From: Nanobdellota archaeon
GTDB taxonomy: Archaea; Nanobdellota; Nanobdellia; Woesearchaeales; CAZJJJ01
Length of the DNA: 31,611 nt
Assembly: GCA_048624455.1 (NCBI GenBank)
Contig: JBMCSP010000001.1
Span: 1-31,611 of the forward strand
Direction of reading: 5' to 3'
In this document: one piece after another, positions 16,003 through 18,216 of the stretch
Numbering within the stretch: the first letter of the stretch is position 1
How the letters are laid out: each line of letters starts with the position of its first letter
Program-made: the position numbers and the translations under genes
Notes under the pieces: generated by a model
Databases searched by the model: none
Told to the model about the DNA's origin: nothing
Seen by the model: only the letters and a program-made list of their open reading frames with translations

Positions 16003-16152
16003 TGTGGGGGGAGGGATTCGAACCCTCGAACCCACTAAGGGACTGGATTCCTCATCAGTGGGAAATGTCAATTTCCGAATCATCGCCGAAAAAAACGGCT
16101 CATCACTCAATAATCTTGAGTCCAGCGGATTTGACCACTTTCCTACCCCCAC
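16003..16152 (-). tRNA. trnL: tRNA-Leu(CAA) with 66-nt intron (16049-16114) at canonical position 37/38
   Basis: Acceptor GTGGGGG/CCCCCAC, discriminator A, D-arm GGA/TCC, anticodon stem CTGGA/TCCAG around CT-CAA-G|A, long variable arm, T-arm GAGGG-TTCGAAT-CCCTC. BHB: CTCA/TGAG central helix with AG|A and GA|A bulges. Confidence 0.95.
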
Positions 16153-16193: not shown

Positions 16194-16262
16194 ATTGTTA
16201 TGGGTGTAACTTTTATTGTCATAACACGCTAGAATATAAAGAAATAAACAAAGTCTGAGTCA

Positions 16263-16733
16263 TCACTCAAACTTCTGCAGCCTGTTCTCAAGCTCTTTGA
16301 GCTGATCCTCAAGCTTGTCCATCTCGCTCTGAGCCTTCTCTTCGTTCTTGCTCTCTTTTGGAGTGGGCTTGTTCTTGGAGACTGTCTTTCTCGACTGCGA
16401 CTGCTTCGTACTAAGCTTTGAGTCTCCTTCCTTCTTCTTGAGCCCGATGCCCAGGATCTCTTCCTCGACAGAGACCTCTTCTTTGCTGAGCCTCCTATGG
16501 ATCTCAGATTCCGGAAGCTGCTTCTTGAGCTGATTGACCATGCTCGTAATCTCTTTCACAGTCTTTTTCAGCAACGTGATCGCCTCATTCTTCTCCTTTC
16601 TGATCTTGAGGAAATTCTCATACTTTTGCAGGAAGACGACTGAGTCCCTTGTTGCCTCTATGATCGCTCGCTTCAGGTCTTTCGTCTCCTGTATCCCAAC
16701 AAAAAAGACGTTGGGGTTCTTTGGTGTAGCCAT
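16263..16733 (-). CDS. Uncharacterised coiled-coil protein (module paralog 3)
   Basis: GGAGG RBS and TGATG overlap with the upstream gene. N-terminal FFVGIQETKDL plus long helix, basic linker, C-terminal DKLEDQLKELENRL helix. Confidence 0.85.
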   Translation of the reverse strand: MATPKNPNVFFVGIQETKDLKRAIIEATRDSVVFLQKYENFLKIRKEKNEAITLLKKTVKEITSMVNQLKKQLPESEIHRRLSKEEVSVEEEILGIGLKKKEGDSKLSTKQSQSRKTVSKNKPTPKESKNEEKAQSEMDKLEDQLKELENRLQKFE

Positions 16734-16966
16734 CAAATATCCTCCGGTTCGAATAGAGTACGATCAATATAAGATATTTTCCTCTCGATGTCCTCGAGAT
16801 TGCTGTTCCAGAGCTCAAGTTCAGCATCCTCTTCAGCCTTGAGGCGCCGAATCTTTTCAAGAACTCCGTTCGCTTCCATGATCTTGTTCTTGATAAGTTC
16901 CATAACATCGATTACATCCTTGTAATCGTCAACCTTTATGAATACAGGTACTTCCTTTGCCATCAT
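16733..16966 (-). CDS. Uncharacterised 77-aa coiled-coil protein (module paralog 2, stand-alone)
   Basis: GGGTGA RBS; PVFIKVDDYK...W...IDRTLFE. Confidence 0.85.
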   Translation of the reverse strand: MMAKEVPVFIKVDDYKDVIDVMELIKNKIMEANGVLEKIRRLKAEEDAELELWNSNLEDIERKISYIDRTLFEPEDI

Positions 16967-16976
16967 CAGTCACCCA

Positions 16977-18071
16977 TCACTTCGATTCTTCGAACAGCGT
17001 CTTGTCGACAAAGTGGAGCTTCGTCTGGATGTATTCGAATGCCTTCTTCCACTTATCGAACTCGCCGTGTTTCTTGTCGTTGAACTCGTCCAGTTTTAGT
17101 ATGAACTCCTGTGACTCATTGAGATCACGCTTGATCTCATCGACAGAATTCAAAACCCTCTTGTAATTATTGATCTCGACGAATAGCGGTCCTTGCTGCT
17201 TGCTGATCCGCTTCTTGATATTGCGCTCGACGTTTCCCATCATTGAGGAATCCGTCCCGATCTCTTCGCTCGGCTTGTGAAGCTTGTGCTTGAGATCGTT
17301 GAGGTGCTCTTCGTCTTGTGATAAGTAGCTGTTGCGCGACCATGGGGCCGGCTGTGATTGCTCGGACTGTCTTTGTTCCTGCTGTTGCGGAGCCTGCTGC
17401 TCTTCGCCCTGCGGTTGCTGTGCCGGTCCTGATTGTCCGATCTCTGGAACATGTTCATCTTCACCCTGCTGCTGCACGGGAGGAAATGCTGGTCCCTGAG
17501 GTGCCTGGTCAGGCTGTGAAGCCGCTTGTGATCCCTGATCGAATGCAGGTGGCTGCTGCGGTGCAAATCCGGTTGGATTTTGTGGTGCATCGGCATCCTG
17601 CTTTTCTGAAGGTCCCTGCTCTGGCTTCTCCTCATTATTCTGGCTAGGAGACTCCTGCCCGTTGAATGTAGGGATCTGCATATCCTGGTTTGTCTTAGCG
17701 CCGGGAAATGTAGGAAGATCAAGTTTTGGGAAATCCATGTTCTCTGCTCCAGGAGGAACTGCCGGCGGCTGTCCTGGGGCCTGTGGTCCTTGCTGGTTCA
17801 TGGAATTAGGGTCCTTCGGTGCAGGTCCCTGAGGCACTTCAGGATTCTTATCATCTTGCTTATTTTCCTGGTTTCCATCAGCCTTTGGTGGCTGTGGTGC
17901 TGGAGGTTGCGGTCCTTGGGGAGCATCTCCTGGTCCTGGAGCTTTTTTATCGTCATCTTTCTTATCTGCGTCTGGTCCTTTCGGCACTCCTTCTTTTCCT
18001 GGTCCTGGAGCAGGCGGCGGCAGAGAAGTGTCTTTCTTCTTTTTATTATGTAAAAGGCCTAAAAAACCCAT
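16977..18071 (-). CDS. Pro/Gln-rich disordered protein with N-terminal amphipathic-basic segment and C-terminal coiled-coil module (paralog 1)
   Basis: MGFLGLLHNKKKKD, ~280-aa P/Q/G-rich linker, then PLFVEINNYK...W...VDKTLFE. Confidence 0.85.
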   Translation of the reverse strand: MGFLGLLHNKKKKDTSLPPPAPGPGKEGVPKGPDADKKDDDKKAPGPGDAPQGPQPPAPQPPKADGNQENKQDDKNPEVPQGPAPKDPNSMNQQGPQAPGQPPAVPPGAENMDFPKLDLPTFPGAKTNQDMQIPTFNGQESPSQNNEEKPEQGPSEKQDADAPQNPTGFAPQQPPAFDQGSQAASQPDQAPQGPAFPPVQQQGEDEHVPEIGQSGPAQQPQGEEQQAPQQQEQRQSEQSQPAPWSRNSYLSQDEEHLNDLKHKLHKPSEEIGTDSSMMGNVERNIKKRISKQQGPLFVEINNYKRVLNSVDEIKRDLNESQEFILKLDEFNDKKHGEFDKWKKAFEYIQTKLHFVDKTLFEESK

Positions 18072-18216
18072 AGATTCATCCCCAATCAGTTATGATTATA
18101 GGTATTCATCAAGCAGATTCTTATTAAAACTTTTCCAACCATCACATAGTGGTATCTGCGTCTGTTCTCCTCATGTAACAAAGGATTAAAGAACTTCGCA
18201 GGTTCTTCATTTGGAT

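What the first reader, a model, noticed from the sequence alone, without database searches (positions are those of the whole stretch)
16263..18071. Three-gene operon built from one repeated ~67-aa strand-plus-coiled-coil module: candidate membrane-tethered scaffold
Seen: the C-terminus of the 364-aa protein aligns without gaps to the 77-aa protein (19 of 67 identical by my count; P-x-F...YK.V...IK...W...I..K...D.TLFE). The N-terminus of the 156-aa protein aligns gap-free to the same pattern (FVGIQETKDL vs FIKVDDYKDV). All three have RBS sites and tight coupling (TGATG overlap). The largest adds an amphipathic-basic N-terminus (MGFLGLLHNKKKK) and a ~280-aa Pro/Gln linker. Known: anchor / PQ-linker / domain is the architecture of the divisome tether ZipA, and ~65-aa paralogous helices forming heteromeric bundles is the SNARE principle. 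Both are analogies, not homology claims. Inference: a heteromeric coiled-coil complex or filament held at the membrane, possibly for division, cell shape or host attachment.
Basis: partly seen in the sequence, partly recalled or inferred. Interest (0 to 1): 0.75.

Follow-up and report, generated by a model that had tools for sequence, protein, structure and literature searches.

The report
Conserved membrane-tethered coiled-coil operon, DPANN archaea
Three tightly packed genes of a tiny DPANN (Woesearchaeota-type) archaeon encode long single-helix proteins of an undescribed family, found in nearly every genome of its class; they probably form a complex hung from the inside of the cell membrane, but its job is unknown.

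Summary
The three genes are real: minus strand, 364, 77 and 156 aa.

**What holds**
- The 77-aa protein is a true paralogue of the last 77 residues of the 364-aa protein (BLASTP 19/67, E 3e-12; profile-profile 99.7%).
- The order long, short, third is kept in 87 of 87 loci of the window's order where all positions can be seen.
- A two-gene core (anchor protein plus third protein) is kept in 15 of 15 loci from other orders of the class, including a 0.5-Mb genome.
- No Pfam, NCBIfam, PDB or Atlas family matches any of the three.
- The long protein has a conserved N-terminal hydrophobic-plus-basic motif, a proline motif, an acidic Pro/Gln linker and the C-terminal heptad helix.
- The short copy is acidic. 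The third protein is basic.

**What does not hold**
- The third protein is not shown to be a copy of the module. Its weak profile score is matched by its own reversed sequence, so it reflects heptad periodicity.

**Reading**
- Best reading: a membrane-tethered acid-base coiled-coil scaffold, possibly part of the division machinery.
- Binding, membrane attachment and function are all inferred.
- It is not SepF, ZipA, CdpC or ESCRT-III.

This scan has already reported the same operon on at least 15 other windows, with the same outcome.

The parts
18121..18135 (-). Promoter-like element: purine-rich BRE-like stretch plus TTTTAATAA TATA-like box
   Evidence: Read. It is conserved in the upstream regions of four close relatives (GAAA..TTTAATAA columns). 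Promoter function is inferred from the archaeal BRE/TATA consensus and was not tested.
18076..18100 (-). Conserved leader (TATAATCATAAC) and RBS-like GGGGATGA before the first start codon
   Evidence: Invariant or nearly invariant columns in the 5-sequence upstream alignment; sequence.
16977..18071 (-). Gene 1: anchor-linker-module protein, 364 aa, pI 4.9, no Cys
   Evidence: ORF and translation. Orthologues of 239-385 aa and 108-390 aa further out. No Pfam or NCBIfam family.
18033..18071 (-). N-terminal hydrophobic-plus-basic motif MGFLGLLHNKKKK (residues 1-13): candidate membrane-binding tip
   Evidence: Family consensus is MG(F/L)(F/L)x(F/L)(L/F)KKxK. A hydrophobic pair followed by a basic pair occurs in the first 30 aa of 95 of 100 orthologues, against 203 of 634 neighbour ORFs. 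The helical hydrophobic moment is only modest: 0.22 here and 0.34 at the family median. Membrane binding is inferred.
17994..18026 (-). Proline motif SLPPPAPGPGK (residues 16-26)
   Evidence: PPP is invariant in the close family. A hydrophobic-P-x-hydrophobic-P motif occurs before the module in 73 of 82 orthologues, mostly within residues 13-50. In other orders it reads LPPLxFPELP.
17700..17735 (-). Second short linear motif DFPKLDLPTFPG (residues 113-124) inside the disordered linker, followed by a QIPTF repeat (17664-17678)
   Evidence: K116, L117, L119, P120, F122 and P123 are invariant among 13 orthologues, while the surrounding linker is not alignable.
17211..17993 (-). Acidic Pro/Gln-rich, low-complexity linker. 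The range runs from residue 27 to 287; the composition figures were computed on residues 14-285.
   Evidence: Composition is 19% P and 15% Q. Length is highly variable among orthologues (family median 129 aa), and the median net charge is -12.
16980..17210 (-). C-terminal module (residues 288-364): short PLFVEI segment, then about 60 residues of heptad helix ending in TLFEE
   Evidence: Profile match at these coordinates. Paralogy to gene 2. Hydrophobic period 3.50.
16733..16966 (-). Gene 2: free-standing copy of the module, 77 aa, pI 4.5, net charge -8
   Evidence: The AF2 model is one helix over residues 12-72, pLDDT 86. It is the most conserved of the three: mean pairwise identity 0.52, against 0.29 for the long module and 0.37 for the third protein's helix. 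It is present as a separate gene only in the window's order.
16263..16733 (-). Gene 3: basic coiled-coil partner ('T'), 156 aa, pI 9.4
   Evidence: The AF2 model has helices 17-72, 75-114 and 131-155. It sits adjacent to the module gene in every locus examined.
16512..16709 (-). T protein residues 9-74: VFFVGI segment plus a heptad helix ending at LP (Pro74, the same residue number as Pro74 of the 77-aa protein)
   Evidence: Median net charge of the first 80 residues across the family is +6.
16266..16328 (-). T protein C-terminal amphipathic helix (residues 136-156); family consensus L-E-x-E-L-x-x-I-E-x-K-L-x-x-L at the very C-terminus
   Evidence: Conserved across the class, although the K-rich stretch before it is not.
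16231..16252 (-). T-rich tract after the last stop codon: candidate archaeal terminator
   Evidence: Sequence. Inferred from the known oligo-T termination signal of archaeal RNA polymerase; not tested.

Best explanation
This is a core operon of class Nanoarchaeia/Nanobdellia (DPANN) for a membrane-tethered, heteromeric coiled-coil scaffold. It belongs to a protein family that has not been described.

**The ancestral unit has two genes.**
1. An anchor protein. It carries a short N-terminal hydrophobic-plus-basic tip, a proline motif, an acidic disordered arm of very variable length, and a C-terminal heptad helix of about 65 residues.
2. A basic partner ('T'). Its heptad helix has the same length, and it adds a lysine-rich stretch and a conserved C-terminal amphipathic helix.

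In the window's order the helix module was duplicated in tandem. This gave a free 77-aa acidic copy between the two genes.

**Proposed mechanism (inferred).** The acidic module helices of the anchor and the free copy bundle with the basic T helix. The tip holds the bundle at the inner face of the membrane. The proline motifs and the T tail recruit other proteins.

**Proposed role.** The system is kept even in 0.5-Mb genomes that divide with two FtsZ proteins and SepF. The most likely role is therefore a housekeeping one at the membrane, with cell division the leading guess. I put that guess at about one in four within this explanation.

**Shown:** gene structure, paralogy of two of the three proteins, coiled-coil periodicity, motif conservation, co-conservation, and absence from known families.

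**Inferred:** complex formation, membrane binding, function.
For: - **Paralogy of genes 1 and 2:**
- **Coiled coil:** single long helices in AF2 models. The hydrophobic period is 3.50, 3.50 and 3.45, with power 14-22 times the median and far above the power at 3.6.
- **Triad conservation:** kept in order and orientation in 84 of 84 loci, 80 of them distinct GTDB species; one locus is cut at its contig end. It is also kept in three divergent genomes that the first profile had missed.
- **Dyad conservation:** the anchor plus T pair is kept in 15 of 15 loci from other orders.
- **Breadth:** the module is found in 271 of 301 genomes of the phylum sample with the narrow profile. The broader profile found it in all 5 of the missed genomes on which it was run, and the T-family profile led to the module next to T in 3 more.
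- **Motifs:** N-terminal motif in 95 of 100 orthologues against 32% of controls. Proline motif in 73 of 82.
- **Charge complementarity:** short copy -8, anchor linker -12, T helix region +6, T middle +5.
- **Equal helix length:** both the 77-aa protein and T have Pro at residue 74.
- **No known family:**
- **Division genes in this genome:** two FtsZ and one SepF.
Against: - No experiment or model shows that the proteins touch.
- Charge complementarity and equal helix length are circumstantial.
- The N-terminal tip is short. Its helical hydrophobic moment is unremarkable (0.22 here, family median 0.34, linker control median 0.23), so membrane binding is plausible but unproven.
- Gene neighbourhood gives no functional pointer. 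FtsZ and SepF are never adjacent in the loci examined. The recurrent neighbours (ScpB, RNase J, PCNA, two unknown families) are absent around the operon in this window.
- Because the operon and FtsZ are both universal in the class, phyletic profiles cannot link them.
Confidence: 0.5

Rival explanations
1. Specific form of the division reading. The anchor protein is the membrane tether or organiser of one of the two FtsZ rings in Nanoarchaeia. It would be a non-homologous functional analogue of haloarchaeal CdpC and bacterial ZipA, with the coiled-coil bundle or the proline motifs binding FtsZ or SepF.
For: - It has the same three-part layout as CdpC: amphipathic N-terminus, long disordered linker, C-terminal binding domain.
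- In that paper, SepF anchors only FtsZ2 and the FtsZ1 anchor outside Halobacteria is open.
- This genome and all relatives tested have two FtsZ genes and a SepF.
- The operon is universal in the class, as a divisome part would be.
Against: - There is no homology to CdpC: no Cys at all, so no zinc ribbons.
- It is not next to ftsZ or sepF in any locus examined.
- The FtsZ C-terminus of this genome does not resemble the linker motifs.
- The CdpC paper reports distant multi-zinc-ribbon CdpC relatives in Nanobdellota, so that niche may already be filled.
Confidence: 0.18
2. A membrane-nucleoid tether. The basic, lysine-rich T protein binds DNA or RNA, and the anchor protein holds it at the membrane for chromosome segregation or organisation. 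This would be analogous to RacA-DivIVA or MatP-ZapB-ZapA linkages.
For: - T is basic (pI 9.4). Its middle region is 35% K/R across the family, with net charge up to +21.
- Many T orthologues in other orders begin with a K/R-rich N-terminus.
- ScpB lies a few kb away in 35 of 80 loci, and PCNA in 19.
Against: - No DNA-binding fold or motif was detected.
- The K-rich stretch is poorly conserved in sequence and length. It could equally bind the acidic anchor linker or acidic lipids.
- The ScpB and PCNA synteny is on the opposite strand or kilobases away, and it is absent in this window.
Confidence: 0.1
3. The three proteins are co-transcribed but do not form one complex. Each would be a separate homo-oligomeric coiled coil, for example the free 77-aa copy acting only as a competitor that caps the anchor protein.
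For: - Outside the window's order the module exists only on the anchor protein, so it must be able to function without the free copy. Homo-oligomerisation of the module is therefore likely.
Against: - Strict adjacency of the anchor and T genes across the whole class.
- Translational coupling.
- Matched helix length and opposite charge are what a hetero-complex predicts.
Confidence: 0.12
4. An ESCRT-III/Vps4-like membrane-remodelling set. The proline motif would act like a MIM2 and the T C-terminal helix like a MIM1, recruiting a MIT-domain ATPase.
For: - The proline motifs (LPELP, LPPLxFPELP) and the extreme C-terminal L-x-x-(R/K)-L-x-x-L helix of T resemble the published MIM2 and MIM1 consensus patterns. 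Those consensus patterns are recalled from memory and were not tested here.
Against: - No Snf7 match in the genome or in the three proteins.
- No MIT domain above the cut-off in this genome or in 61 genomes of the class.
- The only Vps4_C-like hit is the tail of a truncated Cdc48-type ATPase.
Confidence: 0.03
5. A host-attachment or cell-surface structure of an episymbiotic DPANN cell.
For: - The operon is restricted, as far as seen, to a DPANN lineage thought to live attached to hosts.
- In this window a large secreted-looking protein is encoded about 2 kb upstream.
Against: - None of the three proteins has a signal peptide or a transmembrane segment.
- The basic cluster follows the hydrophobic tip instead of preceding it, so these are cytoplasmic proteins.
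- The flanking genes differ between lineages.
Confidence: 0.05

Closest known systems
CdpC (HVO_0399), membrane anchor of FtsZ1 in Halobacteria (bioRxiv 10.64898/2026.07.16.738847)
   Same: It has the same three-part layout: an N-terminal membrane-binding amphipathic segment, a long, fast-evolving disordered linker and a conserved C-terminal interaction domain. It is lineage-wide, vertically inherited and fast-evolving.
   Different: - CdpC needs a zinc ribbon in both terminal domains; the proteins here have no cysteine.
- The C-terminal domain here is a heptad helix with a co-encoded partner, not a zinc ribbon.
- There is no sequence relation.
- No FtsZ link has been shown here.
SepF (Pfam PF04472), FtsZ anchor of archaea and Gram-positive bacteria
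   Same: - An N-terminal membrane-targeting segment is followed by a flexible linker and a C-terminal self-associating domain.
- The start of the module (a hydrophobic strand-like segment followed by a helix) looks superficially like the first strand and helix of the SepF core.
   Different: - No SepF Pfam match.
- The module is modelled as one continuous helix, not an alpha/beta domain.
- The genome has its own bona fide SepF with its own N-terminal tip on another contig.
ZipA (E. coli divisome tether)
   Same: It also has a Pro/Gln-rich extended linker between a membrane anchor and a C-terminal binding domain.
   Different: - ZipA is anchored by a transmembrane helix; there is none here.
- ZipA ends in a globular FtsZ-binding domain; this protein ends in a coiled coil.
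- No Pfam match.
- ZipA is bacterial, found in gammaproteobacteria.
Acid-base heteromeric coiled coils (Fos/Jun-type zippers, SNARE bundles, ZapB-type division coiled coils)
   Same: - Helices of about 60 residues with strict heptad periodicity.
- Paralogous helices are encoded together.
- One set is acidic and one basic.
   Different: - No homology to any of these.
- Stoichiometry and orientation are unknown.
- The third helix is not demonstrably a paralogue.

Membership tests
SepF (PF04472) | C-terminal SepF alpha/beta core recognisable by the Pfam model | tested here: not met
   None of the three proteins matches SepF even at E up to 10. The same model finds the genome's real SepF on contig C9 at 38.6 bits.
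SepF (PF04472) | N-terminal membrane-targeting amphipathic segment | tested here: inconclusive
   A conserved hydrophobic-plus-basic tip is present in 95 of 100 orthologues, but its hydrophobic moment is modest.
SepF (PF04472) | Binds the FtsZ C-terminal peptide | not testable with these tools
ZipA | N-terminal transmembrane anchor | tested here: not met
   The only hydrophobic stretch is FLGLL, five residues, which is too short to span a membrane.
ZipA | Globular C-terminal FtsZ-binding domain (Pfam ZipA_C) | tested here: not met
   No such Pfam match. The C-terminus is a single heptad helix.
ZipA | Pro/Gln-rich extended linker | tested here: met
   Residues 14-285 are 19% Pro and 15% Gln. 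This is a compositional analogy only.
CdpC (haloarchaeal FtsZ1 anchor) | Zinc-ribbon motifs in the N- and C-terminal domains, essential for function | tested here: not met
   There are no cysteines in any of the three proteins.
CdpC (haloarchaeal FtsZ1 anchor) | Amphipathic N-terminus, long disordered linker and C-terminal domain | tested here: met
   This is the same layout, not the same family.
ESCRT-III / Snf7 (PF03357) with a MIT-domain ATPase | Snf7-type helical hairpin core recognisable by Pfam | tested here: not met
   No Snf7 match in the proteins or anywhere in the genome (the genome is 86% complete).
ESCRT-III / Snf7 (PF03357) with a MIT-domain ATPase | A MIT-domain partner (Vps4/CdvC) encoded in the genome | tested here: not met
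   No MIT match in this genome. None is above the cut-off in 61 genomes of the class. The Vps4_C-like hit is a truncated Cdc48-type tail.
Dip/Arco divisome-positioning system (DipA GTPase, DipB DUF2073, DipC zinc ribbon) | Ras-like GTPase, SepF-like DUF2073 protein and zinc-ribbon protein in one operon | tested here: not met
   The three proteins have no GTPase, DUF2073 or zinc-ribbon match and no Cys.
SNARE | SNARE motif recognisable by Pfam and a membrane anchor at the C-terminus | tested here: not met
   Only sub-threshold Syntaxin noise appears, in two distant homologues (E 0.026 and 0.058, cut-off 26.7 bits). The anchor-like motif here is N-terminal.
Undescribed Nanoarchaeia anchor-module family (this operon) | C-terminal module: P-hydrophobic-F-V-x-I-x-x-Y-K ... 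W ... D-K-T-L-F | tested here: met
   Y, K, W, D, L and F are invariant in alignments A1 and A4. There are 1039 library representatives at E <= 1e-10.
Undescribed Nanoarchaeia anchor-module family (this operon) | Adjacent same-strand gene for the basic T protein | tested here: met
   True for every locus examined: 102 loci fetched from other genomes and metagenomes, and also this window.

The most novel reading that the evidence does not exclude
The operon encodes the missing membrane organiser of an FtsZ ring in Nanoarchaeia. It would be a heteromeric acid-base coiled-coil hub on a long flexible arm, invented independently of FtsA, ZipA, SepF and CdpC. Its proline motifs and the T tail would be docking sites for FtsZ, SepF or other divisome parts. 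That would be a further independent solution to the problem of tying a tubulin-like ring to a membrane. It would also be the first divisome component specific to DPANN archaea.
Probability: 0.15. Interest if true: 0.8.

Novelty: new variant of a known kind. Interest (0 to 1): 0.55.

Why it matters
DPANN archaea have some of the smallest cellular genomes known, so a gene set kept in essentially every genome of a whole class, down to 0.5 Mb, is very likely needed for basic cell function. Yet this one has no name, no Pfam family and no structure. How these cells organise their membrane and divide is almost unstudied.

A lineage-wide, membrane-tethered coiled-coil system is a concrete candidate to test. 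The parts are small and soluble, and they would be easy to express. If it proves to be a divisome or cytoskeletal element, it adds an independent solution to membrane tethering in archaea. If not, it still removes three "hypothetical proteins" from the core of a major uncultured lineage.

Tried and rejected
- **Complex prediction.** The anchor module, the 77-aa protein and the T N-terminal helix, with T as partner, returned "no answer" (score 0.11, mark 0.32). I use it neither for nor against binding.
- **Expression.** No RNA holder is listed for the operon. The DNA holders are microbial-mat metagenomes.
- **Fold searches.** Not run, because both AF2 models are bare long helices that would match any coiled coil.
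- **Known families.** Pfam, NCBIfam, PDB sequence profiles and the ESM Atlas gave only scattered sub-threshold coiled-coil noise. Among 60 long-form homologues, the only domain fusion is one probable chimeric ORF with an SBP_bac_5 fragment.
- **Third-protein homology.** Tested with BLASTP, hhalign at two alignment depths and a shuffle/reverse control. It is not supported.
- **ESCRT/MIT idea.** Rejected.
- **FtsZ C-terminal peptide mimicry by DLPTF/QIPTF.** Rejected, because this genome's FtsZ ends in a different motif.
- **Dip/Arco and CdpC membership.** Rejected on their defining domains.
- **Phyletic profile against FtsZ.** Uninformative, since both are universal in the class.
- **Gene neighbourhood.** Recurrent neighbours in relatives (ScpB, RNase J, PCNA, two unknown families) give no clear pointer and are not near the operon here.
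- **Literature.** Searches found no description of the family.
Full report
**1. What is there**

On the minus strand, three ORFs occupy exactly the stated interval:
- 16977-18071, 364 aa (P0001)
- 16733-16966, 77 aa (P0002)
- 16263-16733, 156 aa (P0003)

Each start is preceded by an RBS-like purine run. Genes 1 and 2 are 10 nt apart, and genes 2 and 3 overlap in TGATG. A BRE/TATA-like element and a conserved leader lie upstream, and a T-rich tract follows the last stop. An intron-containing tRNA lies just downstream at 16003-16152.

The window belongs to an 870-kb, 86%-complete genome. Its relatives carry Woesearchaeota, Nanoarchaeota or Nanobdellota labels. The DNA is held by microbial-mat metagenomes.

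**2. The observation**

The paralogy between the C-terminus of the long protein and the 77-aa protein is real.
- BLASTP gives 19/67 identities without gaps, E 3e-12.
- With 83-sequence alignments of each family, hhalign gives 99.7% probability, E 5e-26.

The claimed third copy is not established.
- BLASTP finds nothing.
- I ran a control. The long-protein module scored 20.8 against the third protein's N-terminal helix. 150 column shuffles of that helix scored 10.6 +/- 2.2, with none reaching 20.8. The reversed helix scored 22.8.
- A reversed profile keeps heptad periodicity and composition but not ancestry. The signal is therefore what two coiled coils give, not evidence of a shared origin.
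- The two proteins do share a layout. Each has a short hydrophobic segment (PVFIKV against VFFVGI), then one helix of about 60 residues ending at a proline that is residue 74 in both.

**3. Anatomy**

All three helices show a sharp hydrophobic period of 3.45-3.50 residues. Its power is 14-22 times the median and well above the power at 3.6, which is the signature of a left-handed coiled coil rather than a lone amphipathic helix. AF2 models each as a long single helix.

The long protein has four conserved elements separated by unalignable, length-variable linker:
- **N-terminal tip.** Consensus MG(F/L)(F/L)x(F/L)(L/F)KKxK. It is present in 95 of 100 orthologues, against 32% of neighbouring ORFs.
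- **Proline motif.** It follows within about 15-50 residues of the N-terminus. It reads SLPPPAPGP here and LPPLxFPELP in other orders. A hydrophobic-P-x-hydrophobic-P pattern occurs in 73 of 82 orthologues.
- **Second linear motif.** DFPKLDLPTFPG in the window's close relatives.
- **C-terminal module.**

The linker is acidic (median -12) and Pro-rich. In this window it is 19% Pro and 15% Gln.

The 77-aa copy is acidic (-8, pI 4.5). It is the most conserved of the three: mean pairwise identity 0.52, against 0.29 for the long module and 0.37 for the third protein's helix.

The third protein (T) is basic (pI 9.4). Its helix region has median charge +6, and it adds a K/R-rich stretch and a conserved amphipathic helix at the very C-terminus.

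None of the three has a cysteine, a signal peptide or a transmembrane segment.

**4. Distribution and evolution**

- A profile of the module finds 3230 representatives at E <= 1e-3 and 1039 at E <= 1e-10 in a library of 1.8 billion cluster representatives. They come in two forms: about 75 aa stand-alone, and 108-390 aa with the module at the C-terminus.
- In 84 of 84 loci fetched by the module, 80 of them distinct GTDB species, the genes stand in the order long, short, T on one strand, packed tightly. One locus is cut at its contig end. Flanking genes differ between loci.
- In a 301-genome sample of the phylum, the narrow profile finds the module in 271 genomes. It usually hits twice in the window's order and once in other orders.
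- I looked at ten loci from six families of other orders. They hold a two-gene unit, anchor protein plus T, with no free copy.
- I re-examined eight of the 30 genomes that the narrow profile had missed, and all eight have the system. Three hold a divergent triad. Five hold the dyad, among them a 0.5-Mb single-contig genome.
- The unit is therefore essentially universal in the class. The ancestral form is anchor plus T. The free 77-aa copy arose by tandem duplication of the module in the window's order.
- I could not steer a search outside the phylum, so the outer range is unknown.

**5. What it is not**

- **No known family.** No Pfam, NCBIfam, PDB-sequence or Atlas family matches any of the three or their relatives. 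Sixty long-form homologues show no domain fusion apart from one probable chimera.
- **SepF.** The SepF model does not match, and the genome has its own SepF.
- **ZipA.** There is no transmembrane anchor and no ZipA C-terminal domain.
- **CdpC.** The newly described haloarchaeal FtsZ1 anchor has the same amphipathic-tip, linker and C-terminal-domain layout, but it depends on two zinc ribbons. There is no cysteine here.
- **Dip/Arco.** That oscillator needs a GTPase, a DUF2073 protein and a zinc-ribbon protein.
- **ESCRT-like idea.** I also considered that the proline motif and the T C-terminal helix mimic ESCRT-III MIM2 and MIM1 motifs. The genome has no Snf7 and no MIT domain. 61 genomes of the class have no MIT domain above the cut-off. 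The one Vps4_C-like hit is the tail of a truncated Cdc48-type ATPase.

**6. Most likely mechanism**

What is shown: a duplicated heptad-helix module, a co-inherited basic heptad-helix partner of equal length, a conserved N-terminal hydrophobic-plus-basic tip, conserved proline motifs on an acidic flexible arm, and class-wide retention.

What I infer:
- The acidic module helices and the basic T helix form a heteromeric bundle. Opposite charge, matched length, translational coupling and strict adjacency all point this way.
- The tip holds the bundle at the cytoplasmic face of the membrane.
- The proline motifs and the T tail recruit clients.

The system is kept in the smallest genomes of a lineage that divides with two FtsZ proteins and SepF. 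A housekeeping role at the membrane is therefore likely, and division is the leading guess, though weakly supported.

The rivals are listed with their tests: a nucleoid-membrane tether through the lysine-rich T protein, separate homo-oligomers, an ESCRT-like system, and a host-contact structure.

**7. Limits**

- The single complex-prediction job gave no verdict and is not used as evidence.
- No RNA run holds the locus.
- The hydrophobic moment of the tip is unremarkable, so "amphipathic helix" is better stated as "hydrophobic-plus-polybasic motif".
- Neighbourhood and phyletic profiles do not point to a function.

**8. Relation to earlier scan notes**

The same operon has been reported by this scan on at least 15 other windows of other genomes. 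Where a follow-up was done, it gave the same verdict: observation partly confirmed, an undescribed membrane-tethered coiled-coil trio, closest known SepF or CdpC. I reached CdpC and the main conclusions before reading those notes, and they agree with mine.

- the reversed-profile control on the third protein;
- the two-gene ancestral core in other orders, and its presence in eight re-examined genomes that the narrow profile had missed;
- the acid-base charge pattern;
- the class-wide LPPLxFPELP-type motif and the T C-terminal helix;
- the explicit rejection of the MIT/ESCRT reading.

**9. Verdict**

This is a real, undescribed, class-wide operon. Interest is 0.55. I rate the novelty as a new variant of a known kind: a membrane tether with a flexible arm and an oligomerising end, built from an unrelated family.

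Noticed in passing
window 16003-16152 (- strand): Rfam finds a 150-nt tRNA (46.3 bits), evidently with a long intron, directly downstream of the operon. ARAGORN did not report it. Other scan notes also mention an intron-containing tRNA-Leu next to this operon in other genomes.
   Followed up: no
L011-L090 (relatives); not in this window: In relatives the triad often sits in a conserved neighbourhood. RNase J is downstream in 44 of 80 loci, PCNA is present in 19, ScpB is upstream in 35, and two unknown families (about 453 aa with a hydrophobic N-terminus, and about 203 aa) are present in 45 and 44. In this window the flanks are different: a radical SAM protein, a NUDIX-wHTH protein, an unknown 515-aa protein and the tRNA. 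The locus has therefore been rearranged here.
   Followed up: partly
G000 contig C9 (L005:1363-1854, -), C19 (L004:1369-2499, +), C119 (L003:1-840, -): The genome encodes one SepF with its own N-terminal tip (MRDFFSNVKNRLGL) and two FtsZ genes, one of them cut by a contig end. No Snf7 or MIT domain was found in this 86%-complete genome.
   Followed up: partly
G000 contig C111 (L107:3-740, +): This is a truncated AAA ATPase at a contig start. It has a marginal Vps4_C match (22.2 bits, cut-off 21.3). Its tail looks like the D2 end of a Cdc48-type protein rather than Vps4.
   Followed up: partly
L011-L014 and many other loci: Many MAG records titled 'uncultured Methanosarcinales archaeon' carry this operon at up to 96% identity to the window's protein. 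They sit among Woesearchaeota and Nanoarchaeota records, so the titles look like placeholder or wrong taxonomy.
   Followed up: no
P0088 (204 aa): One library protein joins a fragment of a bacterial solute-binding protein (SBP_bac_5, E 2.4e-8) to the module. It is probably a chimeric contig or a mis-called ORF, not a true fusion.
   Followed up: no
window 18076-18135 and L012-L015 upstream regions: Two conserved AT-rich elements precede the operon in close relatives: GAAA-N2-TTTAATAA, and TATAAT(C/T)ATAAC just before the RBS. An earlier scan note on another genome reported a palindromic control site in this promoter. I did not test for one here, because the inverted-repeat call failed on a strand argument.
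   Followed up: partly
L009:5626-5901 (-): A 91-aa gene with a weak PRC-barrel hit lies about 4 kb from the triad in one metagenomic locus. PRC-barrel proteins are archaeal division factors in Haloferax (listing). This is a single observation and was not pursued.
   Followed up: no
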